In this document: one piece after another, positions 13,787-63,591 of the stretch | Position numbering within the stretch: the first letter of the stretch is position 1 | Layout of the letters: every line of letters begins with the position of its first letter | Origin: Naegleria gruberi | Lineage: Eukaryota | Direction: 5' to 3' (one strand) | DNA: 64,000 nucleotides | Assembly: GCA_000004985.1 (NCBI GenBank) | Contig: GG738898.1 | Notes under the pieces: model-generated | Told to the model about the DNA's origin: nothing | What the model saw: only the letters and a program-made list of their open reading frames with translations | The model's database searches: none | Program-made: the position numbers and the translations under genes

Positions 13787-16700
13787 CTATCTTTTCTGTT
13801 GCAGTTCGATAAATTTTCGAAGACCTTTAAAGTTGGGAAGTGGCTGAAGTTGGTTGAGGTTTAGCGACCTTAGAATGGAATTGACTTCTGAGAAGTGTAC
13901 ATTTGGAGGGTTGAGTTGAGGTTGGTGATCGAATATGAATGGTTCAATAGTGAGATTTTCACCAAGGTTCAAGTGCAATAAGCATTCATCATTAGGTGTT
14001 GATAGAACCTCAATGAAAGGGAAGATTGAAGAGTGCATAATTCTCTGATGAAGAGAAATCGAAAAAAGGAAAATTCCATTCATGGTGAAGTAAACCTCAC
14101 CTTGCTCTGTCAAACCACATCCAATTGTATCTCCACAATGTGCAATTATTTCCAATTCCTTATAAAGTATTTCCTTTTTATCGGCAGACATTATACAGCC
14201 GAATCCTTCCTGTGCCTGAAATGCATATTTTCTATCAACACAATTATTCTCACTAATGTTTGATCTGGCCATCAGTCCAATAGAAACCTTGGAGGATATC
14301 AATCGATGGATTTGAACTTCATAGTAGAATACAGTTTTCATGGAGGGTTTTCTAATGTTGGCAGATGGATTACCAAATCGCCTAGTTTCTGCAATTTCTG
14401 GTTGGAAAAAGAAGAGAGAATCTTTGGTGGTTAGTGACATTTTGGTAGCTCTAGAAGAAACAAAGTGTAGAGTTCGTTCATTATCCAATACCTTGAGTGG
14501 TGATCCTTGAAGATTTACAAGGTGTGAAAAATCTGCTTTGGTTTCAATAGGTACTGGACTATAGTTTCCAAGGTAGTGGTTGATGAGCTCTTTTTCATTT
14601 CCAAGAGTACTGTTTGGATGGTTATCAAAGTGGAAAACCTTGATATCGTTAGGATTCAAATTGTTACAGAGTAAATGATAAATCAATGTTTGTCTATCAA
14701 CGTAGGAGTAATTTTTCAAAAGGCCGAAAGTTAACAGACCACTACCGGTTGGAATGAGATAGTACATGCTATTTGGAAGTCCACATACATTATTATCTCC
14801 AACTATTGCCCCGAATTTCGTATTTCCAATTGTATGGTAGGTTGTAAACTTTTCAAGACTGAAGAAATCATAGAGGAAATTATTCATTACTCCTAGTACT
14901 CTATCTGCAGCACTCTCATCACCAGTGTCAAGAGCCAAGTTCAGTATCTTGGCAAGTTTTTGCCACACTGGTTTGATGATTGCTCTTCTGTGATGGAAAG
15001 GAATCTCATTGAAAACCTCGACTAGTATTGGCTCGATATTGTAATTTGGAGAAAGTAGAGTGGCATAGCCTGGTTCAATGAGTGAAATGTATGTATAGAT
15101 TCCTCTCAATAATTGAGTCTTTTTCTCTGAAAGTGGATCTGAAGATCTGCCAATTTTGCTTTGATTTCTTTCGAGCCACAAACAATAACCAACACGAGTT
15201 GACTTGTCATATTTGCAAAGGAAGAAGATTATTTTCAAGCAGGAAAGGGTGAAGAAAAATTCTGGACTATGGAAAACCTTGGCATGGATAAAATTCAAAA
15301 TACAAGTTGTGGAATATCTTCCCAATTCGTCAACAAGTAAGGAGGAGGTTTCATTTCTCATTTCTCTGATTATTCTCTTAATGTGTCTCTTATCTGTTTG
15401 ATTGTCATAGTATGTGAGTACTTGAGAAATTATACTCAGTGTGCTCTTGAAAATCTCATCATACATCTCATTCAACTCTACACTTGACTCTGTGTGAGCT
15501 CGATCTGAGAATAATTTTCTGGAAATGTAGAACATCAAAACGGGGAGGACTCTATACTCTGACATTAATTCGCAACATTTCTGCCGTAATTTTTCATTGG
15601 AGAGCAAGTCTTTCATGCCAAGAATGGATTTCTTAACAAAAAGACTGCTTGTGTCAAGTCCACTCAAAAATCCTAACAAGGATTCCGGCTTACTGAGAAT
15701 ATTCAACAATTGAGATGAGTCATTCTCAAAGATGAATCTCCATGTTTGTATGACTGGGTGTTCTAATAGTTCAGCTGCACTTTTTCTTTCCTCCCTAGCA
15801 CACACCATCATTTTCACAATTCTTTTTGATCCAATGTCAAATACATGTTCATGAATAAACTCAAAGTAGTGATTCGAACGCATAAATAACCAAAAGTCAA
15901 TATTATACCGTCTTGCTCTTTGATCGATTAATTGTTGGAAATCCTTCACAGTTAAAGTAGCCGAAACTTGCATAAAGATAATTCCTAGACTGTAAACATC
16001 AACTTTGTAATCATATTCAGCTCCAGGTTTAACCTCAGGAGCAACATAGGCCCGAGTACCACAAATAGTTGATGTAGAGTTTTGATGAACAAGTTGCTTA
16101 GCAAGACCAAAATCAATAATTTTCAAAGTAATCTTTCTAATTTCTTCCTCAAAATTATTCTTTAAATTATCAGAATCATATTGCACAATAATGTTTTGCG
16201 GTTTCAAATCTCTGTGAATAACCTTATTTTGATGGAGATAATTCATGACTTCGAGTAATTTGATGAACCATGAGAATCTGACATCCATGGTCAAAGTTTT
16301 GAGACCCTTACTTTCCTTTGTAATTTCATTCAAATCAGAAATAAACTGATCCAATATTTTACCACTACAATATTCCATAAGAATGCAGTAGTATCTCTTG
16401 TTAATGTCCATGAATGAGTCATAATATTTCACAATATTTGGATGATCCAGCATCATCATTAATTTCACTTCCTTTTCCTGATAGTCATTGATTGTGATTC
16501 TTTTTAGAGCAAAAATTCTATTGGTTCCAACTTGGACAACTCTGAATACAGTTCCATAAGATCCTTCTCCTAACTGCTCAAGTAGTTGGAAGGATTTTGT
16601 TTTCTTGNNNNNNNNNNNNNNNNNNNNNNNNNNNNNNNNNNNNNNNNNNNNNNNNNNATCGAAAGAGTTTGCGTTTCCGTTCATTACAAAATTCTTTTGG

Positions 16701-20547: not shown

Positions 20548-22281
20548 TTATTCTTCATCATTTTCAACTTCGACAATATTTTCATCATCCACAAGTACGT
20601 CCATGACATCTTCAACATCTTCGACCTTTTCTTCAGTAAAGATCATTTGCTTTTCTGCCAAGTTTCTATAGATACCTTGTGGAATCTTAATGAGCTCGCT
20701 GTGAGTGCCCTTTTCTTTCATGACACCCTTAACTAAGACACAGATAACATCTGAATTAATGACAGTTGTCAATCTGTGAGCAATACAAATGGTTGTTCTT
20801 CCCTTCATCAATTCATCCAAAGCAGCTTGAACTAATCTTTCAGATTCAGTATCGAGAGCAGATGTGGCTTCATCCAATAAGAGAATCTTTGGATCTTGCA
20901 AGAGAGCTCTTGCAATGGCAATTCTTTGTTTTTGACCACCAGACAAGGAAACACCCTTTTCACCCAAAATAGTGTCATACTTTTCAGGCAAATCCATAAT
21001 AAAGCTGTGAGCATTAGCTCTCTTGGCAGCATTTTCAACTTGTTCCATGGTGACAACTTTACCAGATTCGACACTATCATTAGGACCTAACAAGGCATAG
21101 GCAATGTTATATTTGATTGTTCCAGCAAATAATACAGGTTCTTGTGAGACAATACCCAAACAATTTCTGTGCAACCACATTGGATCGAGCTCAGCAACAT
21201 CAACTCCATCAATCTTAATTGTACCCTTATTTGGAGTATAGAATTTTTCTAAAAGACCTACAATGGTTGACTTGCCTGAACCTGATGGACCAACCAAAGC
21301 AATTTGTTGACCAGATTTGATATCCAAACTGAAATCAGTCATGACATTAGTATTTGGACGAGATGGGTAAGCGAAATCAACTCCAGTAATTTCAATATCA
21401 CCCTTAACTTGTTCAATCTTCTTACCACCCATGAATGGAATGGCTGGTTCTCNNNNNNNNNNNNNNNNNNNNNNNNNNNNNNNNNNNNNNNNNNNNNNNN
21501 NNGACATTGTATGTGAGAACAGAAAGTAAGTGGTGAGGTACTGACAAGAATGAGAGCCATTCTCCAATTGACAGTCATACTCAAAATGAAACCAACAATA
21601 AATTGAATGATTTCTTGCATGAAAATGAAGAATTCGTTTGTGTAAACATCTTGAATCTTTGGAATATCTTCACTGAGAACTACAGTGACACTACCAATCT
21701 TCTTAATATCGAAGAAACTCATTTCTTGTTTAGCCAATGCTGACATGTAAGCTCTTCTCATTGAAGTTCCCAATCTGGCATTTGACAATTGCAAGAAGAA
21801 ATGTTGCATACCGAAAGCAGCCATACCACAGAATGTAAGAATAGTGAGCTTTTTACAGAGATCGTCAACTGCTTCATAAGCAAGAGCTGTTTTCTGTTCT
21901 GTTGTTAAGGTTGATGATGTGGCATTTGCAAAACTGTCAATCAAATCTCCCAAAATATATTGAACAACTAGAATAAGGTTAATACTATTTGAAATTCGAA
22001 TACTATTACTACATACTAATAGGAATCAAACCATAAGCCATTGCACCAATACATCCAATAGCGATCAGTAAACAATTCCATCCAAAAATTCTCAACATGT
22101 GTAAATGAGAGAAGAAACCAATCTTTGGTTCTCTGTCATCTTTGATTTCATCACCAACTGGTTGTTGTTTCTTTGATTTCTTTGAAGTGTCATCTCTTTT
22201 TCTTCTCCTAATGATACGTTGTCTTCTTGTTGGTTGTTGCACTTCTTCCTTATTTTCAGGATTATCACTTTGAGCTGGCAT
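20548..22281 (-). CDS. ABCB-type (MDR/TAP-like) half-transporter, TMD plus NBD; partial because of an internal 50-nt N gap
   Basis: Exon 1 22281..22017 (MPAQSDNPENKEE…AYGLIPI). 49-nt intron GTATGT…TCTAG at 21968..22016. Exon 2 runs from 21967. The TMD is …GDLIDSF… plus transmembrane helices. The N gap 21453..21502 falls between TMD and NBD. The NBD has Walker A GPSGSGKST, signature LSGGQKQRIAIARAL, Walker B ILLLDEATSALD and H-loop IAHRL. Ends in TAA. Confidence 0.75.
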
Positions 22282-48327: not shown

Positions 48328-48427
48328 NNNNNNNNNNNNNNNNNNNNNNNNNNNNNNNNNNNNNNNNNNNNNNNNNNGCAGCAGATTGGCTGTTTATTGT
48401 TAGTAATTTATGATATCATTAGAATCG

Positions 48428-52455: not shown

Positions 52456-55400
52456 NNNNNNNNNNNNNNNNNNNNNNNNNNNNNNNNNNNNNNNNNNNNN
52501 NNNNNNNNNNNNNNNNNNNNNNNNNNNNNNNNNNNNNNNNNNNNNNNNNNNNNNNNNNNNNNNNNNNNNNNNNNNNNNNNNNNNNNNNNNNNNNNNNNNN
52601 NNNNNNNNNNNNNNNNNNNNNNNNNNNNNNNNNNNNNNNNNNNNNNNNNNNNNNNNNNNNNNNNNNNNNNNNNNNNNNNNNNNNNNNNNNNNNNNNNNNN
52701 NNNNNNNNNNNNNNNNNNNNNNNNNNNNNNNNNNNNNNNNNNNNNNNNNNNNNNNNNNNNNNNNNNNNNNNNNNNNNNNNNNNNNNNNNNNNNNNNNNNN
52801 NNNNNNNNNNNNNNNNNNNNNNNNNNNNNNNNNNNNNNNNNNNNNNNNNNNNNNNNNNNNNNNNNNNNNNNNNNNNNNNNNNNNNNNNNNNNNNNNNNNN
52901 NNNNNNNNNNNNNNNNNNNNNNNNNNNNNNNNNNNNNNNNNNNNNNNNNNNNNNNNNNNNNNNNNNNNNNNNNNNNNNNNNNNNNNNNNNNNNNNNNNNN
53001 NNNNNNNNNNNNNNNNNNNNNNNNNNNNNNNNNNNNNNNNNNNNNNNNNNNNNNNNNNNNNNNNNNNNNNNNNNNNNNNNNNNNNNNNNNNNNNNNNNNN
53101 NNNNNNNNNNNNNNNNNNNNNNNNNNNNNNNNNNNNNNNNNNNNNNNNNNNNNNNNNNNNNNNNNNNNNNNNNNNNNNNNNNNNNNNNNNNNNNNNNNNN
53201 NNNNNNNNNNNNNNNNNNNNNNNNNNNNNNNNNNNNNNNNNNNNNNNNNNNNNNNNNNNNNNNNNNNNNNNNNNNNNNNNNNNNNNNNNNNNNNNNNNNN
53301 NNNNNNNNNNNNNNNNNNNNNNNNNNNNNNNNNNNNNNNNNNNNNNNNNNNNNNNNNNNNNNNNNNNNNNNNNNNNNNNNNNNNNNNNNNNNNNNNNNNN
53401 NNNNNNNNNNNNNNNNNNNNNNNNNNNNNNNNNNNNNNNNNNNNNNNNNNNNNNNNNNNNNNNNNNNNNNNNNNNNNNNNNNNNNNNNNNNNNNNNNNNN
53501 NNNNNNNNNNNNNNNNNNNNNNNNNNNNNNNNNNNNNNNNNNNNNNNNNNNNNNNNNNNNNNNNNNNNNNNNNNNNNNNNNNNNNNNNNNNNNNNNNNNN
53601 NNNNNNNNNNNNNNNNNNNNNNNNNNNNNNNNNNNNNNNNNNNNNNNNNNNNNNNNNNNNNNNNNNNNNNNNNNNNNNNNNNNNNNNNNNNNNNNNNNNN
53701 NNNNNNNNNNNNNNNNNNNNNNNNNNNNNNNNNNNNNNNNNNNNNNNNNNNNNNNNNNNNNNNNNNNNNNNNNNNNNNNNNNNNNNNNNNNNNNNNNNNN
53801 NNNNNNNNNNNNNNNNNNNNNNNNNNNNNNNNNNNNNNNNNNNNNNNNNNNNNNNNNNNNNNNNNNNNNNNNNNNNNNNNNNNNNNNNNNNNNNNNNNNN
53901 NNNNNNNNNNNNNNNNNNNNNNNNNNNNNNNNNNNNNNNNNNNNNNNNNNNNNNNNNNNNNNNNNNNNNNNNNNNNNNNNNNNNNNNNNNNNNNNNNNNN
54001 NNNNNNNNNNNNNNNNNNNNNNNNNNNNNNNNNNNNNNNNNNNNNNNNNNNNNNNNNNNNNNNNNNNNNNNNNNNNNNNNNNNNNNNNNNNNNNNNNNNN
54101 NNNNNNNNNNNNNNNNNNNNNNNNNNNNNNNNNNNNNNNNNNNNNNNNNNNNNNNNNNNNNNNNNNNNNNNNNNNNNNNNNNNNNNNNNNNNNNNNNNNN
54201 NNNNNNNNNNNNNNNNNNNNNNNNNNNNNNNNNNNNNNNNNNNNNNNNNNNNNNNNNNNNNNNNNNNNNNNNNNNNNNNNNNNNNNNNNNNNNNNNNNNN
54301 NNNNNNNNNNNNNNNNNNNNNNNNNNNNNNNNNNNNNNNNNNNNNNNNNNNNNNNNNNNNNNNNNNNNNNNNNNNNNNNNNNNNNNNNNNNNNNNNNNNN
54401 NNNNNNNNNNNNNNNNNNNNNNNNNNNNNNNNNNNNNNNNNNNNNNNNNNNNNNNNNNNNNNNNNNNNNNNNNNNNNNNNNNNNNNNNNNNNNNNNNNNN
54501 NNNNNNNNNNNNNNNNNNNNNNNNNNNNNNNNNNNNNNNNNNNNNNNNNNNNNNNNNNNNNNNNNNNNNNNNNNNNNNNNNNNNNNNNNNNNNNNNNNNN
54601 NNNNNNNNNNNNNNNNNNNNNNNNNNNNNNNNNNNNNNNNNNNNNNNNNNNNNNNNNNNNNNNNNNNNNNNNNNNNNNNNNNNNNNNNNNNNNNNNNNNN
54701 NNNNNNNNNNNNNNNNNNNNNNNNNNNNNNNNNNNNNNNNNNNNNNNNNNNNNNNNNNNNNNNNNNNNNNNNNNNNNNNNNNNNNNNNNNNNNNNNNNNN
54801 NNNNNNNNNNNNNNNNNNNNNNNNNNNNNNNNNNNNNNNNNNNNNNNNNNNNNNNNNNNNNNNNNNNNNNNNNNNNNNNNNNNNNNNNNNNNNNNNNNNN
54901 NNNNNNNNNNNNNNNNNNNNNNNNNNNNNNNNNNNNNNNNNNNNNNNNNNNNNNNNNNNNNNNNNNNNNNNNNNNNNNNNNNNNNNNNNNNNNNNNNNNN
55001 NNNNNNNNNNNNNNNNNNNNNNNNNNNNNNNNNNNNNNNNNNNNNNNNNNNNNNNNNNNNNNNNNNNNNNNNNNNNNNNNNNNNNNNNNNNNNNNNNNNN
55101 NNNNNNNNNNNNNNNNNNNNNNNNNNNNNNNNNNNNNNNNNNNNNNNNNNNNNNNNNNNNNNNNNNNNNNNNNNNNNNNNNNNNNNNNNNNNNNNNNNNN
55201 NNNNNNNNNNNNNNNNNNNNNNNNNNNNNNNNNNNNNNNNNNNNNNNNNNNNNNNNNNNNNNNNNNNNNNNNNNNNNNNNNNNNNNNNNNNNNNNNNNNN
55301 NNNNNNNNNNNNNNNNNNNNNNNNNNNNNNNNNNNNNNNNNNNNNNNNNNNNNNNNNNNNNNNNNNNNNNNNNNNNNNNNNNNNNNNNNNNNNNNNNNNN

Positions 55401-56688
55401 NNNNNNNNNNNNNNNNNNNNNNNNNNNNNNNNNNNNNNNNNNNNNNNNNNNNNNNNNNNNNNNNNNNNNNNNNNNNNNNNNNNNNNNNNNNNNNNNNNNN
55501 NNNNNNNNNNNNNNNNNNNNNNNNNNNNNNNNNNNNNNNNNNNNNNNNNNNNNNNNNNNNNNNNNNNNNNNNNNNNNNNNNNNNNNNNNNNNNNNNNNNN
55601 NNNNNNNNNNNNNNNNNNNNNNNNNNNNNNNNNNNNNNNNNNNNNNNNNNNNNNNNNNNNNNNNNNNNNNNNNNNNNNNNNNNNNNNNNNNNNNNNNNNN
55701 NNNNNNNNNNNNNNNNNNNNNNNNNNNNNNNNNNNNNNNNNNNNNNNNNNNNNNNNNNNNNNNNNNNNNNNNNNNNNNNNNNNNNNNNNNNNNNNNNNNN
55801 NNNNNNNNNNNNNNNNNNNNNNNNNNNNNNNNNNNNNNNNNNNNNNNNNNNNNNNNNNNNNNNNNNNNNNNNNNNNNNNNNNNNNNNNNNNNNNNNNNNN
55901 NNNNNNNNNNNNNNNNNNNNNNNNNNNNNNNNNNNNNNNNNNNNNNNNNNNNNNNNNNNNNNNNNNNNNNNNNNNNNNNNNNNNNNNNNNNNNNNNNNNN
56001 NNNNNNNNNNNNNNNNNNNNNNNNNNNNNNNNNNNNNNNNNNNNNNNNNNNNNNNNNNNNNNNNNNNNNNNNNNNNNNNNNNNNNNNNNNNNNNNNNNNN
56101 NNNNNNNNNNNNNNNNNNNNNNNNNNNNNNNNNNNNNNNNNNNNNNNNNNNNNNNNNNNNNNNNNNNNNNNNNNNNNNNNNNNNNNNNNNNNNNNNNNNN
56201 NNNNNNNNNNNNNNNNNNNNNNNNNNNNNNNNNNNNNNNNNNNNNNNNNNNNNNNNNNNNNNNNNNNNNNNNNNNNNNNNNNNNNNNNNNNNNNNNNNNN
56301 NNNNNNNNNNNNNNNNNNNNNNNNNNNNNNNNNNNNNNNNNNNNNNNNNNNNNNNNNNNNNNNNNNNNNNNNNNNNNNNNNNNNNNNNNNNNNNNNNNNN
56401 NNNNNNNNNNNNNNNNNNNNNNNNNNNNNNNNNNNNNNNNNNNNNNNNNNNNNNNNNNNNNNNNNNNNNNNNNNNNNNNNNNNNNNNNNNNNNNNNNNNN
56501 NNNNNNNNNNNNNNNNNNNNNNNNNNNNNNNNNNNNNNNNNNNNNNNNNNNNNNNNNNNNNNNNNNNNNNNNNNNNNNNNNNNNNNNNNNNNNNNNNNNN
56601 NNNNNNNNNNNNNNNNNNNNNNNNNNNNNNNNNNNNNNNNNNNNNNNNNNNNNNNNNNNNNNNNNNNNNNNNNNNNNNNNNNNNNNNN
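52456..56688. other. Assembly gap (4233 N)
   Basis: A continuous run of n. The three giant track ORFs (52359..56747, 52375..56700, 52451..56734) are artefacts of translating N. Additional 50-nt gaps lie at 16608..16657, 21453..21502 and 48328..48377. There is one ambiguous base at 60277. Confidence 0.99.
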
Positions 56689-60105: not shown

Positions 60106-60992
60106 ATGTCCACTACTACTATTACTACTACTTCTAAAACTACATCCCGTGTCTGGCTTATTGTTGGTACTTCCACAGGTTTCGGAAGAGAATTTGTCAA
60201 GTCTGTCCTTCATAGAGGTGAAAAGGTTATAGCCACAGCTCGTTCCTTGGACAAGATTCAAGATTTGAAGGAATTGNGTGCTCATACTATGCAACTTGAT
60301 GTTACCTCCGATCAAGGTACATTAAATTTGTTTGCTGAGCAGGCAATTGGAGTGTATGGTCATGTTGATATTCTCATCAATAATGCTGCCTATGTTTTGA
60401 ATGGGACTATTGAGGAGACATGAGGAGATCAACACTTGTTTAATACCAATGTTTTTGGATTGTTGAATACGACACGTGCTATTCTTCCACATTTTCGTGA
60501 AAGAAAGAGTGGAATTATTGTAAATATTCATCCATTGGTGGAATAGCTAGTGTTAAAGTTGGTGGATTGTATTGTGCTACTAAATTTGCTGTGGAAGCAA
60601 TTTCTGAAGCACTCAAAGATGAAGTTGCTCATTTGGGAATTAAGGTTGTCGTTGTTGAACCAGGTTACTTTAGAACTGATTTGCTTTCGTCTAGTAATAT
60701 GAAGGATGCTAAAAAAACTATTTCAGATTATGAACCAATTTACAAGGAAGTTGATTTCCATGCTGTTAATCACAAGCAAAGAGGTGATCCTGTAAAGTTA
60801 TCCGAAAGACTCGTTGATGTTTTGACCCAGAGTGGAGTTGCTGCTGGAAGAGAAATTCCATTCAGAATTCCATTTGGTGTTGATGCTTATCCATTCATTG
60901 AAGGTAAATGTCAAACTGTTTTGAAGGAAATGAAGGAATGGGAAGATGTCATTAAGAGTACTGATCATGATGATGTCACTCCTCAACAATAA
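60106..60992 (+). CDS. SDR-family oxidoreductase, second copy, with an in-frame TGA at 60421-60423 and a 1-nt frameshift near 60526-60530
   Basis: The Rossmann motif is LIVGTSTGFGREF. Then …NNAAYVLNGTIEET-TGA-GDQHLFNTNVFGLLNTTRAILPHFRERKSGIIVNI. After restoring one t (att(t)catcc) it continues SSIGGIASVKVGGLYCATKFAVEAISEALKDEVAHLGIKVVVVEPGYFRTDL…. That gives the active-site Tyr-x3-Lys (YCATK). One ambiguous base (n) lies at 60277. TAA stop at 60990-60992. Confidence 0.6.
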
Positions 60993-61079: not shown

Positions 61080-63591
61080 TTACAATTTAAAGATTGGCTC
61101 ACCAGGTTTCAAATAACTGGTAAAATGAGAGCCCACCACTGTGTGATAATTCATGAAATTGAGTGATTTCTCTTCGTGTTGTGAATGAGATTTTGTAAGC
61201 AAGTGCTCCAATCTTTCAACTACCTTATCTTCTACACCTGATGATTTATGACTGGAAAGATGGGACAGAATATTATCAACTTGCTCTTGATTGATTCCGT
61301 TTTCTGTTTCGAATATTTGACAAAAATCTGCATTGAATTCGTCCATCTTGGAATTTGCCTTCTTTTGCTCCAATTCGTATAACCATTCATCATCTTGAAC
61401 TTGAGAACGTTTCAACAATTGATAAACAGAGTGAATATGATGATTCTCTGCAAAAATTCTTTCCACTGGTCTGAAAATGAACGATTGTTTCGTAAACTTG
61501 TAAGATGACCAATCACAAACTATTGGAATATCCAAAAAGTTTGAAAATTCATTCAATTCCTTTGCTCTATTTATAACTGAACCAATCATGGCAAAGAAAC
61601 GCATCTGCTTACTTCCCACATTACCCATAATTCCATTTCCTGATGCACCCGATGCGCACATCTTAATTTTCGGTTGGTTATCCTTACTCAATGTTTCGTT
61701 CAAAGAGTTCAGTAAGGTAAGGATCTTGAGGGAAGTTTCCAAAGCAGCTGCTTGAGGATTCTTATCGGTAAAGGTAATAACATATTCATTGTAACTCTTG
61801 ATTTGAAGATCTGCCTTTGAGGTCTTACAGATTGTTGAAATGGAGGTCAATGCTTTGGAAATTAAATTCGAAAGCATACCAGATTCGAATTCATAGGAAT
61901 CTTCATTGAGGTTTGGAACTGTCAAGTAGATAATTGCACATTCCTTCATGGAGAGACCAAGTTTGAATAGATTGTTGGCAATATTTTCCTTCTTGGAAAT
62001 TTTCGAATGGTTTCCACTGCTATGGGACATGTGACTCCTCGATTCCTTTCTTGAGTGGAACGACTCATAAGCATTGTGATGATTGTTATCTTGCTTGTCA
62101 TCTTCAGTTTCAAGCTTGGTCATTTCCAATTGATTCAAAACCGAATCTGGAATAAATGCTCTAATTTCACCCAACCATCTCACAGTTTCAGTTAAACTTG
62201 AATAGATTGCATTGGCTTCCGTGAATATCGAAGATCTTGGTTTGATATTCGCCAAATCCAAAATCTCAATCTTTTTGAAATCTTGTTGTAATTTGATAAA
62301 TGGACTTGCAACTGACCACCCAATAAGAATACTCATTATTACACCAAGTAAACAAACTCCTATAGAAACTCCTATAATAACATAACTACTCATAATAATA
62401 CCATTCTTTACCTCTCTTTCATCAAAAACTAAGGTCATTCTCCATTTTAGGTTAAAAAATATATATGGTGATGAAGAAACCAAGAAACTTTCACCTGCAT
62501 CATTGGTTAATGTTAGTCTAATATCTGTAGTTTCGTTTAAATTGTTATCTTTCTGATGTTGCAAGAGTTTGGTCATGAGTGTTCCAGCTCCTCTTGTGGT
62601 CACATTGGTTGCCTTCATTCTCTTCAAAACAATGTCGGGAATTGTGAGAGAACTACCAATGATATAGTCATTTCCATATTCTGATAGGATGACATATCCC
62701 TTTTCTAGAACTTTGATTGCTGACAAGAATTGAGCAATGGCATCGAGTGAGATGTTGATTTTGGCAAATCCAATTCTATTCTTCTTTCCTGAAGGTAATT
62801 CGGTTCTATTGTAAATTGGGGTTGACCAATAGGTTGATTGAGGTCCATTAATTACTATATTAACAATTTCATTACAATAAAATATTCGAAACTAAACACT
62901 TACCCTTATAAGGAGCTCCAAATGCACCATCTGGATACATCTTCATCAACTCTATAGATTCCAAATAATAATCAGTCTTACCAACAGCATAGGTAATATT
63001 TGTCGAATAAGAATTCGGATTATATAAACCAGTTGTCATATTCGCAGCATACACCACAAAATTTCCTTTTTGTCTCTTCATAGCCAAAGCTAAAGATTTA
63101 GTCTTTACATCTGCTGAAAATGCATAGAGTGCATTATTACCTTGCTCTCCCAAGCAAAAATTTGTAACTGTCACGCCAAATGTCTTAATTCTTTGATAGA
63201 GATAGGTCAATACAGTATCAGCAAAGTCAATGTGATAATTATGATAATCATCTGCTAAACTATCTGCAATGTATTTGGCGGGAATTAATTGACCATTCAT
63301 GAAAGCTTGGATTTTCTCATTCATGTTTGTGATTAAAACGTCAACTTGTTCGAGAGCTGCTGCTTCGTTCATGGTGTAGGCAGCTGACCAAATTGGGATG
63401 GCTGTCATGAGGACAATTAGGACAATGGCAATGATGAGGAATAGTCTGATACTTAGAATAAACTTTAGAAGAAAGTTTCTATTCGAATTGGCTGGTTTGG
63501 CAAAGAGTTCTGCATTAGAATCAGTTTCGTCTTGAAGAATGTCTAGAGATTGACGAGGAGGTTGCTTTTCTTCTGGTGCTATCTTTGTCAT
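61080..63591 (-). CDS. Receptor-type class III nucleotidyl cyclase homolog (TM – extracellular sensor domain – TM – cyclase homology domain), 2 exons; catalytic-site residues degenerate
   Basis: Exon 1 63591..62904 (MTKIAPEEK…, signal-anchor TM LLKFILSIRLFLIIAIVLIVLMTAIPIW, then extracellular domain). 49-nt intron GTAAGT…ATATAG at 62855..62903. Exon 2 62854..61080, with a second TM IIGVSIGVCLLGVIMSILIGW. Then the cyclase homology domain …ECAIIYLTVPNLNEDSYEF…IKMCASGASGNGIMGNVGSKQMRFFAMIGSVINRAKEL… (canonical …FADIVGFT…IGIHTGPVVAGVVG.K.PRYCLFGDTVNTASRMES…). Both metal-binding Asp positions and the GDTVN Asp are substituted. TAA stop. Confidence 0.6.

What the first reader, a model, noticed from the sequence alone, without database searches (positions are those of the whole stretch)
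61080..63591. Receptor-architecture class III cyclase whose catalytic residues are substituted (candidate pseudo-cyclase)
The topology (signal-anchor TM, about 200-aa extracellular domain, second TM, cytoplasmic cyclase homology domain) is that of sensor adenylyl/guanylyl cyclases. But the two metal-coordinating Asp positions (FxDIxGFT and IGDxYM equivalents read YLTVPNL and IKSYNEY). The transition-state motif GDTVNTASR reads GSVINRAKE. The rest of the fold is conserved (…IKMCASGASGNGIMGNVGSKQMRFF…). Either it needs a partner cyclase domain to form a heterodimeric active site, or it has been repurposed as a regulatory or binding module.
Basis: partly seen in the sequence, partly recalled or inferred. 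Interest (0 to 1): 0.55.

Follow-up and report, generated by a model that had tools for sequence, protein, structure and literature searches.

The report
Catalytically dead cyclase-like amoeba receptor
This is an intact gene of a Naegleria-like amoeba for a membrane receptor with a bacterial-type double-Cache sensor outside and an adenylyl/guanylyl-cyclase-like domain inside that has lost most residues needed to make cAMP or cGMP, and it belongs to a large, conserved family of such "pseudo-cyclases", so some of the many cyclases counted in these amoebae probably do not make cyclic nucleotides.

Summary
The gene lies on the minus strand at 61080..63591. It has two exons split by a 49-nt GT..AG intron (62855..62903) and encodes 820 aa.

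Its parts, in order:
- TM1
- a roughly 318-aa ectodomain, not about 200 aa; a model of the N. gruberi-like homologue folds as dCache
- TM2
- a HAMP-like domain
- an LP-motif helix
- a poorly conserved Ser-rich linker
- a class III cyclase homology domain (CHD)
- a conserved DEWxYEL motif and a helical tail

The CHD assignment is solid. The family profile hits PDB cyclases at E = 1e-6, Foldseek gives TM 0.7 to CyaB, Cya2 and Rv1625c, and hhalign to catalytically intact relatives gives 99.8%.

Four of the six universal catalytic residues are replaced:
- Asp1 to T541
- Asp2 to N585
- the transition-state Arg to E662
- the beta7-beta8 Lys to E699/H701

Both base-recognition residues are also replaced (I581, A651). 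Only N658 and R648 remain.

This is not a sequencing artefact. Among 119 representative relatives from Naegleria, Willaertia, Percolomonas and metagenomes, none keeps more than 3 of the 6 residues. The CHD is nevertheless as conserved as the sensor domain.

Both half-sites are degenerate, so a partner cannot complete an active site. The most likely role is a non-catalytic, ligand-gated signalling receptor.

The parts
61080..63591 (-). Whole CDS of the receptor (820 aa). Exon 1 is 62904..63591, exon 2 is 61080..62854, and the stop codon is 61080..61082.
   Evidence: ORFs and sequence. The spliced translation is in frame with no internal stop. It aligns end to end with Naegleria homologues.
62855..62903 (-). 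49-nt spliceosomal intron (GTAAGT...ATATAG), phase 1, lying inside the ectodomain-coding region.
   Evidence: Read directly from the sequence. The junction peptide YKVINGPQSTYW matches homologues (YKVLNGPQSTYW).
63394..63462 (-). TM1 (residues 44-66), a signal-anchor helix that follows a 43-aa, poorly conserved cytoplasmic N-terminus.
   Evidence: Kyte-Doolittle peak of 3.07. The model of the homologue shows one long helix here.
62391..63393 (-). Extracellular double-Cache (dCache) sensor domain, residues 67-384 (about 318 aa, interrupted by the intron). It carries six N-x-S/T sequons.
   Evidence: Pfam dCache_1 E = 0.0022, below the cut-off. The AF2 model of the N. gruberi-like homologue P0001, which is 64% identical in this region, has pLDDT 83. 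Foldseek finds dCache ligand-binding domains: McpX 6d8v, Mlp24 6ior, PctA 5t65 and TlpA, at E = 1e-9 to 1e-10 and target TM 0.70-0.73. Sequons.
62319..62390 (-). TM2 (residues 385-408).
   Evidence: Kyte-Doolittle peak of 2.77. The model shows a continuous helix running into the HAMP-like region.
62169..62318 (-). HAMP-like two-helix domain (residues 409-458) with the hallmark P414 and E442.
   Evidence: P414 is present in 123 of 126 family sequences and E442 in 135 of 136. All 18 hits of the region profile A4 against the PDB are HAMP domains (Af1503, NarQ, EnvZ chimeras), at marginal E = 0.03-1.2 and aligned over 49 positions. Together with the LP-motif helix, this is the most conserved region: 58-88% identity to homologues.
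62109..62168 (-). Conserved helix E-x-R-A-F-I-P-D-S-V-L-N-Q-L (residues 459-478). It resembles the cyclase-transducer element or signalling helix that normally abuts the CHD.
   Evidence: F463 is present in 123 of 143 sequences, P465 in 142 of 143 and L469 in 102 of 142. Intact relatives have FLKYVPHDVVKTI at the same place, about 25 aa before beta1. The identification as a CTE is an inference from the motif and was not tested against a CTE model.
61980..62108 (-). Ser/His/Lys-rich low-complexity linker (residues 479-521) inserted between the transducer-like helix and the CHD.
   Evidence: It is only 8-50% identical to homologues, against 40-72% for the CHD. The model has pLDDT below 50 here. 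It is absent from intact relatives.
61407..61979 (-). Degenerate class III cyclase homology domain (residues 522-712).
   Evidence: details are given under the observation check.
61920..61922 (-). Codon ACA, T541, at the position of metal-binding Asp 1 (end of beta1).
   Evidence: hhalign pairs FTDIVQFT with YLTVPNLN. In the model beta1 ends at residue 541. The family has D here in only 3 of 119 sequences and R/K in 50 of 119.
61785..61802 (-). Codons for I581-K582-S583-Y584-N585-E586, the beta2-beta3 hairpin. I581 sits at the substrate Lys position and N585 at metal-binding Asp 2. In the alternative register, shifted by one residue, these would be K582 and E586.
   Evidence: hhalign, ungapped. 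The alternative register comes from HMMER against OaPAC. In the family, position 585 is D in 37 of 119 sequences and position 586 is E in 54 of 119.
61557..61625 (-). Codons for G640-N-V-G-S-K-Q-M-R648-F-F-A651-M-I-G-S-V-I-N658-R-A-K-E662. The GNxG motif and the phosphate-positioning Arg (R648) are kept, the base-recognition Thr/Asp is A651, the ribose Asn (N658) is kept, and the transition-state Arg is E662.
   Evidence: hhalign. In the family G640 is present in 148 of 149 sequences, N641 in 129 of 149 and G643 in 147 of 149. R/K648 is present in 118 of 119, N at 658 in 15 of 119 and R at 662 in 6 of 119.
61083..61406 (-). C-terminal extension (residues 713-820): the family-specific D718-E-W-L-Y-E-L motif followed by three predicted helices, which at family level resemble a TPR motif.
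   Evidence: W720 is present in 135 of 137 sequences, E719 in 122 of 137 and Y722 in 117 of 134. The helices have pLDDT 50-70. The family profile A5 hits TPR proteins, for example CTPR3 1na0 at E = 2.5e-5 and YbgF at 0.0016. In the query itself the TPR-like motif is diverged.

Best explanation
This is an intact, selectively maintained gene of a Naegleria-like heterolobosean amoeba. It encodes a type-II-oriented, two-TM receptor: an extracellular dCache ligand sensor, then a HAMP-like domain, an LP-motif signalling helix, a disordered Ser-rich linker, a class III cyclase homology domain and a DEWxYEL/helical tail.

The CHD keeps its fold but has lost both metal-binding Asp, the transition-state Arg, the beta7-beta8 Lys and both base-recognition residues. 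It therefore cannot make cAMP or cGMP by the canonical two-metal mechanism. It cannot complete a site with a partner either.

The protein belongs to an old, expanded, Heterolobosea-wide family of pseudo-cyclase receptors. The family derives from catalytically intact dCache-HAMP-CHD cyclases that still coexist in the lineage.

Most likely mode of action (inferred, not shown): ligand binding to the dCache dimer is relayed through TM2 and HAMP, as in bacterial receptors. The pseudo-CHD dimer, together with the conserved DEWxYEL/TPR-like tail and the Ser-rich linker, then acts as a ligand-controlled interaction platform rather than as an enzyme.
For: Shown here:
- Gene model and integrity.
- Topology.
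- dCache fold of the ectodomain of the N. gruberi-like homologue.
- HAMP-like region.
- CHD homology and fold.
- Residue mapping against intact relatives: T541, I581, N585, A651 and E662, and E699/N700/H701 in place of KGK, compared with the list of universal catalytic residues in PMC2576301.
- Family-wide degeneracy: none of 119 representative CHDs has more than 3 of 6 canonical residues, and only 3 of 119 have D at Asp1.
- Purifying constraint: the CHD is 40-72% identical to homologues, like the ectodomain (42-64%). The HAMP and helix region is 58-88% identical and the linker only 8-50%.
- Family-specific conserved motifs, including DEWxYEL with W in 135 of 137 sequences.
- The family is large: 90 clusters at E <= 1e-30 and 947 at E <= 1e-10. 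It spans Naegleria gruberi, N. fowleri and N. lovaniensis, Willaertia and Percolomonas.
- Intact relatives with the same architecture exist, including one from Willaertia (P0084).
- The same cytoplasmic module is joined to other N-termini, such as ankyrin repeats plus dCache, as expected of a functional output module.
Against: No biochemical data exist, so inactivity is inferred from residue identity only. A basic residue (R/K648) and the GNxG motif are almost invariant, and an acidic residue often sits next to the Asp2 position (E586). Some nucleotide or phosphate binding, or a non-canonical chemistry, therefore cannot be excluded. The interaction-platform output is an inference, and no partner is known. 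The TPR-like signal is a family-level signal and is weak in the query. The disordered linker between the transducer helix and the CHD makes it unclear how a HAMP signal would reach the CHD. The dCache fold was modelled on a homologue that is 64% identical in that region, not on the window protein itself.
Confidence: 0.55

Rival explanations
1. It is a modulatory or 'poison' subunit. The pseudo-CHD, with its TM and HAMP dimer, pairs with a catalytically intact paralogue, so that ligand binding to its dCache domain tunes (most likely lowers) the cAMP or cGMP output of that partner.
For: CHDs are obligate dimers with sites at the interface (PMC2576301). Intact paralogues with the same dCache-HAMP-CHD-tail architecture coexist in Heterolobosea (P0084 from Willaertia). 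The CHD core and the HAMP and helix regions are well conserved. Degenerate CHDs paired with intact ones are known in heterodimeric rhodopsin-cyclases (PMC10622942).
Against: Both half-sites are degenerate, so the heterodimer would have no complete site and only inhibition is possible. The pseudo family is far larger than the set of intact dCache relatives recovered: 4 of about 123 CHDs among the top 150 hits. There is no partner gene in the window. The Ser-rich insert and the DEWxYEL motif distinguish the family from intact relatives. No interaction data exist.
Confidence: 0.2
2. The domain is not dead but re-tooled. It still binds a nucleotide or phosphate ligand (ATP/GTP or a cNMP sensor), or it catalyses a different or metal-independent reaction. 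It would use the invariant GNxG-R/K648 element and the Arg/Lys that many family members carry at the Asp1 position.
For: R/K648 is present in 118 of 119 sequences and GNxG is almost invariant. The Asp1 position is Arg or Lys in 50 of 119 family members, a pattern that could replace a metal by a side-chain charge. The module is combined with several kinds of sensor N-termini, like a true effector.
Against: In the query the Asp1 position is Thr, not a basic residue. The P-loop-like G-F-T after beta1 reads N-L-N, and the beta7-beta8 KGK hairpin is replaced or deleted, so most canonical triphosphate contacts are gone. The conserved GNxG, R and G positions are also structural in intact cyclases. 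There is no precedent I know of.
Confidence: 0.17
3. It is an ordinary active receptor cyclase, and the apparent substitutions are alignment or sequencing artefacts.
For: The query-only hits to cyclase models are weak (E = 0.01-0.02), so alignment error is conceivable. A one-residue register ambiguity exists at the beta2-beta3 hairpin.
Against: The profile-profile alignment to intact relatives has 99.8% probability and is ungapped through beta1-beta3. No Asp lies within 3 residues of the Asp1 position, and no Arg lies at the transition-state position in either register. The same substitutions occur in homologues from independently sequenced genomes. The ORF is uninterrupted.
Confidence: 0.05
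4. It is a decaying pseudogene or an assembly artefact.
For: The contig is a draft assembly, with N gaps at 16608, 21453, 48328 and 52456-56688 and a single N at 60277.
Against: The 820 codons have no stop or frameshift, and the intron is canonical. The CHD is as conserved as the sensor domain. The family shares motifs across genera.
Confidence: 0.03

Closest known systems
Bacterial-type TM-dCache-TM-HAMP-class III nucleotidyl cyclases of Discoba. These include the 'Cache adenylate cyclase' of Naegleria in Upadhyay et al. 2016 (PMC4822843), the Cache1-HAMP-NCIII subfamily of Euglena and N. gruberi in Ebenezer et al. 2019 (PMC6366073), and the intact relatives P0071, P0069, P0084 and P0150 found here.
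   Same: The overall architecture and order of domains are the same. The sensor region is homologous: the family profile matches their residues about 40-460. They share the LP-motif helix before the CHD, the CHD fold, and a C-terminal helical tail with an F..A...F....P.D...L pattern.
   Different: Those proteins keep FTDIVQFT, KYIGDA, GDxVNxxxR and VKGK, and they score 56-95 bits on PF00211. The window protein has T541, I581, N585, A651, E662 and E699/H701 and scores 15 bits. It also carries a roughly 45-aa Ser-rich insert between the helix and the CHD, and the DEWxYEL motif.
Half-degenerate CHDs of heterodimeric or pseudo-heterodimeric cyclases: mammalian membrane AC C1/C2 and soluble guanylyl cyclase alpha/beta (established knowledge), and fungal heterodimeric rhodopsin-guanylyl cyclases, including CcNeoR4 (PMC10622942).
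   Same: A CHD that lacks part of the catalytic set yet is retained. CcNeoR4 likewise lacks a canonical CTE and the conserved metal- and base-binding residues.
   Different: In C1/C2 and sGC alpha/beta each chain keeps one complete half-site, so one composite site works. Here both half-sites are defective, so complementation is impossible. No partner gene is adjacent. The sensor is a dCache domain, not a 6-TM bundle, a haem domain or a rhodopsin.
Pseudoenzyme signalling domains in receptors: the kinase-homology domain of receptor guanylyl cyclases, and degenerate GGDEF/EAL domains of bacteria. This is an analogy from general knowledge and was not tested here.
   Same: An enzyme fold is kept under selection after loss of catalytic residues and is used for regulation, binding or scaffolding.
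   Different: The fold family and lineage differ. For those cases ligands and partners are known, and here none is.

Membership tests
Class III nucleotidyl cyclase (Pfam Guanylate_cyc PF00211) | [quoted passage not shown] | tested here: met
   The query alone scores 15.4 bits, below the 21.9-bit cut-off. The family profile against the PDB returns only class III cyclases, with E = 1.3e-6. 12 of 16 relatives hit PF00211. hhalign to intact relatives gives 99.8%. Foldseek gives target TM 0.70-0.74.
Class III nucleotidyl cyclase (Pfam Guanylate_cyc PF00211) | Two metal-binding Asp residues (end of beta1 and the beta2-beta3 turn). | tested here: not met
   T541 and N585. In the alternative register the second is E586. 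No Asp is present in either register. The family has D at Asp1 in 3 of 119 sequences.
Class III nucleotidyl cyclase (Pfam Guanylate_cyc PF00211) | Ribose-orienting Asn and transition-state Arg in helix alpha4 (N-x-x-x-R). | tested here: not met
   The Asn is kept (N658) but the Arg is E662. In the family N is present in 15 of 119 sequences, R in 6 of 119, and no sequence has both.
Class III nucleotidyl cyclase (Pfam Guanylate_cyc PF00211) | Triphosphate-positioning Arg (beta4) and Lys (beta7-beta8 loop). | tested here: not met
   The Arg is present (R648, with the register uncertain by one residue; R/K in 118 of 119 family sequences). The KGK hairpin reads E699-N700-H701, and this hairpin is deleted in more than half of the family.
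Class III nucleotidyl cyclase (Pfam Guanylate_cyc PF00211) | Base-recognition pair: Lys or Glu in beta2, plus Asp, Thr or Cys before alpha4. | tested here: not met
   I581 and A651. In the alternative register K582 would fill the Lys position.
Class III nucleotidyl cyclase (Pfam Guanylate_cyc PF00211) | Cyclase activity (NTP converted to cNMP plus PPi). | not testable with these tools
   This needs an enzyme assay of the recombinant protein.
Complementary heterodimeric cyclase subunit (C1/C2 type or sGC alpha/beta type) | One complete half-site: either both Asp, or the Lys + Asp/Thr + Asn + Arg set. | tested here: not met
   Both half-sites are incomplete: T541/N585 on one side and I581/A651/N658/E662 on the other. 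There is no second CHD in the window.
dCache_1 extracellular sensor (PF02743) | Two tandem PAS-like (PDC) modules on a long N-terminal helix, lying between two TM helices. | tested here: met
   The sequence match is below threshold (18 bits against a cut-off of 45, E = 0.0022). The fold was tested on the N. gruberi-like homologue P0001 (pLDDT 83). Foldseek finds dCache ligand-binding domains at E = 2.5e-10 to 1e-8 and target TM 0.70-0.73. The window protein's own membrane-proximal module was modelled with pLDDT 75-87.
dCache_1 extracellular sensor (PF02743) | A known ligand-binding motif, for example the amino-acid-binding motif of dCache_1AA. | not tested
   By eye, the region TDYY...PY...NIS does not obviously carry the R-x-W-Y...Y...D pattern recalled from the literature. 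No model or alignment was run.
HAMP domain (PF00672) | A roughly 50-aa two-helix unit directly after the last TM, with Pro in helix 1 and a conserved Glu at the start of helix 2. | tested here: inconclusive
   There is no Pfam hit for the query. All 18 PDB hits of the family profile of residues 409-478 are HAMP domains, but at E = 0.03-1.2. P414 and E442 are almost invariant. The model predicts two helices, with a low-confidence connector.

The most novel reading that the evidence does not exclude
Part of the large 'cyclase' repertoire reported for Naegleria and its relatives is not cyclases at all. It would instead be an ancient family of dCache (or ankyrin-dCache) chemoreceptors whose CHD-derived output domain has acquired a new, non-cyclase signalling activity. 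Candidates are nucleotide or phosphate sensing through the invariant GNxG-R/K element with a basic residue in place of the metal site, or ligand-gated recruitment of effectors through the DEWxYEL/TPR-like tail. That would be a eukaryotic transmembrane chemosensory pathway of a previously undescribed type.
Probability: 0.2. Interest if true: 0.7.

Novelty: new variant of a known kind. Interest (0 to 1): 0.45.

Why it matters
Naegleria and related amoebae are reported to carry about 80 or more membrane cyclases, taken as evidence of rich cAMP/cGMP-based environmental sensing (PMC9928731). These counts rest on domain hits, and database names such as "Guanylate cyclase domain-containing protein" do too.

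This analysis shows a conserved family that fails four of the six universal catalytic-residue tests. At least 90 clusters (50% identity) match at E <= 1e-30. The family occurs in Naegleria, including N. fowleri, and in Willaertia and Percolomonas. It still keeps an intact sensor, HAMP-like region and CHD fold.

If the family is inactive, cyclase counts are inflated. These organisms would then possess a set of dCache receptors with an unknown, non-cyclase output. That gives a tractable pseudoenzyme system, with intact paralogues as built-in controls. It also provides one of the few examples of bacterial-type dCache receptors diversifying inside a eukaryote.

Tried and rejected
I therefore modelled the exon-2 product (residues 231-820) for the cytoplasmic part. 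For the ectodomain I modelled the N. gruberi-like homologue P0001.
- I scanned all six frames of the window for a second CHD, as a possible partner, using the family HMM with filters off. Nothing scored better than E = 1.2.
- The exact source organism could not be identified. The best matches are 58% (N. gruberi-like), 67% (metagenome contig L001) and 72% over 297 aa (P0039, an ENA fragment). The organism is a Naegleria-like heterolobosean that is not N. gruberi, N. fowleri or N. lovaniensis.
- Literature searches for pseudo-cyclase or degenerate-cyclase descriptions in Naegleria found nothing specific.
- I considered that E586 is a conservative Asp-to-Glu replacement of the second metal ligand, as HMMER against OaPAC suggests. 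The ungapped profile-profile alignment to the nearest intact relatives and the conserved Phe at +6 favour N585.
- I considered E547/D548, just after the beta1-alpha1 loop, as shifted metal ligands. They lie at +6 and +7, and position 547 is not conserved in the wider family (E in 23 and D in 14 of 119 sequences).
- I rejected the indel and sequencing-error explanation and the pseudogene explanation (see the rival explanations).
Full report
**1. What is at the coordinates**

The window is eukaryotic: GC is about 34%, introns are short and the assembly contains scaffold gaps. On the minus strand, an ATG at 63591 opens a 239-codon ORF, and a 548-codon ORF ends at 61080. The two are joined by a 49-nt intron, GTAAGT...ATATAG, at 62855..62903. 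Splicing gives an 820-aa protein with no internal stop. The junction peptide ...GAPYK-V-INGPQSTYWSTP... is collinear with all homologues. The neighbouring dehydrogenase-like gene is split in the same way.

**2. Architecture**

- Hydropathy gives two TM segments, at residues 44-66 and 385-408. The ectodomain is therefore about 318 aa, with six N-glycosylation sequons, and not about 200 aa.
- The ectodomain matches Pfam dCache_1 only below threshold (E = 0.0022). An AlphaFold model of the same region of the N. gruberi-like homologue (64% identical here; pLDDT 83) superposes on chemoreceptor and kinase dCache ligand-binding domains. These include McpX 6d8v, Mlp24 6ior, PctA 5t65, TlpA and mmHK1S, at E = 1e-10 to 1e-8 and target TM 0.70-0.73.
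- After TM2 comes a HAMP-like unit. P414 and E442 are nearly invariant. A profile of this region hits only HAMP domains in the PDB, although at marginal E-values.
- Next is a conserved helix, RAFIPDSVLNQL. Intact relatives carry FLKYVPHDVVKTI at the same position.
- Then comes a Ser/His/Lys-rich linker that is disordered and poorly conserved, followed by the CHD (residues 522-712).
- The protein ends with a tail that starts with DEWLYELE and continues as three helices. At family level these helices resemble a TPR motif.

**3. Is it really a cyclase homology domain?**

Yes. The query alone is weak (PF00211 at 15.4 bits against a 21.9-bit cut-off; OaPAC E = 0.019). The profile of 16 homologues finds only class III cyclases in the PDB (E = 1.3e-6 and upward), and 12 of 16 members match PF00211. 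The AF2 model of residues 231-820 has a CHD pLDDT of about 80. Its best structural matches are CyaB, Cya2, Rv1625c, CyaC, OaPAC/bPAC and sGC (E about 1e-8, target TM 0.70-0.74).

**4. Catalytic residues**

Winger et al. 2008 (PMC2576301) list six residues as conserved across all adenylyl and guanylyl cyclases:
- two metal-binding Asp and a triphosphate-positioning Arg from one monomer;
- a ribose-orienting Asn, a transition-state Arg and a beta7-beta8 Lys from the other monomer.

The exhaustive search recovered four catalytically intact relatives with the same dCache-HAMP-CHD-tail architecture (P0071, P0069, P0084, P0150). hhalign of the family against these four gives 99.8% probability and E = 1e-29, and the alignment is ungapped from before beta1 through beta3. 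It maps the positions as follows.

| Canonical residue | Residue in this protein |
|---|---|
| Metal-binding Asp 1 | T541 |
| Substrate Lys | I581 |
| Metal-binding Asp 2 | N585 |
| Triphosphate Arg | about R648 (retained) |
| Substrate Thr | A651 |
| Ribose Asn | N658 (retained) |
| Transition-state Arg | E662 |
| KGK hairpin (beta7-beta8 Lys) | E699-N700-H701 |

HMMER alignments to OaPAC shift the beta2-beta3 hairpin by one residue, which would put K582 on the Lys and E586 on the second Asp. I favour the hhalign register. It is ungapped, the templates are the closest intact relatives, and the conserved Phe six residues after the Asp is matched (F591). Neither register gives an Asp at either metal site.

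**5. It is a family trait, not an accident**

- Close homologues come only from Naegleria gruberi, N. fowleri, N. lovaniensis and metagenomes, at 41-69% identity.
- The exhaustive profile search finds 90 clusters (50% identity) at E <= 1e-30 and 947 at E <= 1e-10. Named members come from Naegleria, Willaertia magna and Percolomonas cosmopolitus.
- Among 119 representative CHDs, Asp1 is D in 3 and R/K in 50. Asp2 is D in 37. The Asn is N in 15 and the Arg is R in 6.
- No sequence has more than 3 of the 6 canonical residues, and the beta7-beta8 hairpin is deleted in more than half.
- By contrast, G640-N-x-G643, R/K648, G654, R691-P692 and D718-E-W-x-Y-E-L are nearly invariant.
- Within the close family the CHD is as conserved as the sensor (40-72% against 42-64% identity to the query). 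The HAMP and helix region is the most conserved (58-88%) and the linker the least (8-50%).
- The cytoplasmic module also occurs behind other N-termini, for example ankyrin repeats plus dCache.

This is the signature of a maintained pseudoenzyme family that derives from intact dCache-HAMP cyclases. One such intact cyclase (P0084) still exists in Willaertia.

**6. How it most likely works**

Shown: an intact receptor gene, the dCache/TM/HAMP-like/CHD anatomy, loss of the canonical catalytic set, and conservation.

Inferred:
- (a) No cAMP or cGMP synthesis by the two-metal mechanism is possible.
- (b) No rescue by a partner is possible. In a dimer, each site takes the two Asp from one chain and Lys/Thr/Asn/Arg from the other, and this protein is defective in both roles. 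A heterodimer with an intact paralogue would have zero complete sites.
- (c) The transmembrane relay is still in use, because the HAMP and helix region is the most conserved part. The output must therefore be non-catalytic.

My best guess for the output is a ligand-controlled interaction platform formed by the pseudo-CHD dimer, the DEWxYEL/TPR-like tail and the Ser-rich linker, which may be phosphorylated.

The rivals are an inhibitory or modulatory heterodimer subunit, a re-tooled nucleotide or phosphate sensor or non-canonical enzyme, an active cyclase after all, and a pseudogene or artefact. The last two are largely excluded.

**7. Comparison with what is known**

The TM-Cache-HAMP-cyclase architecture in Naegleria and Euglena is described in Upadhyay 2016 (PMC4822843) and Ebenezer 2019 (PMC6366073). 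Naegleria's cyclases are counted by domain (PMC9928731). Degenerate CHDs are known as halves of heterodimeric enzymes, and CcNeoR4 in chytrids lacks the CTE and the metal- and base-binding residues (PMC10622942). I found no description of a doubly degenerate, expanded receptor family in Heterolobosea, though the searchable library is incomplete.

The protein therefore has the homology and fold of a class III cyclase but fails the catalytic membership tests. I file it as a new variant (a pseudoenzyme clade) of a known kind.

**8. Verdict**

Pseudoenzymes are common and no mechanism has been shown. On the other side, the family is large and conserved, occurs in a genus that includes a human pathogen, and bears directly on how the "cyclase-rich" signalling of these amoebae is read.

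Noticed in passing
window 60106..60992 (+): The neighbouring gene looks like a short-chain dehydrogenase/reductase, with motifs VGTSTGFGREF and YCATKFAVE. It is split into two ORFs (60106..60423 and 60567..60992), presumably by a short intron, and has a single N at 60277.
   Followed up: no
window 16608-16657, 21453-21502, 48328-48377, 52456-56688: There are three 50-N gaps and one 4233-N gap, so the window is a scaffolded draft assembly. About 4.2 kb just upstream of the region of interest is unknown and could hide a gene.
   Followed up: no
family alignment, column of query residue 541: At the position of the first metal-binding Asp, 50 of 119 family representatives carry Arg or Lys (the query has Thr). 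A basic side chain where a metal ligand used to be might be a functional replacement rather than random decay.
   Followed up: partly
window 61980..62108 (residues 479-521) and the homologous linkers: The insert between the transducer-like helix and the CHD is low-complexity and fast-evolving. It is Ser-rich throughout the family: columns 494, 497, 506 and 513 are Ser in 55-66% of sequences. These may be phosphorylation sites, or the pattern may only reflect composition.
   Followed up: no
P0056, P0086, P0108, P0142 (metagenome proteins): These relatives of 1150-1265 aa place 3-4 ankyrin-repeat blocks in front of the dCache/pseudo-CHD module. JGI names them 'ankyrin repeat protein/class 3 adenylate cyclase'. 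Their organism is unknown.
   Followed up: partly
L001 (ENA metagenome contig ERZ929261 k127_567817, 2611 nt): This contig carries the closest long homologue (67% identity over 600 aa). Its called protein starts MQCISLTCLIITVINGPQ..., meaning the gene caller started at or near the intron. This suggests that the intron position is conserved and that such metagenome gene calls for eukaryotic contigs are truncated.
   Followed up: no
P0003 and P0011 (N. gruberi): Two family members are reported from a longest contig of the same length (158,571 nt). They may be linked paralogues in N. gruberi. P0003 appears to be a mis-predicted version (missing most of the CHD) of a gene nearly identical to P0001.
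   Followed up: no
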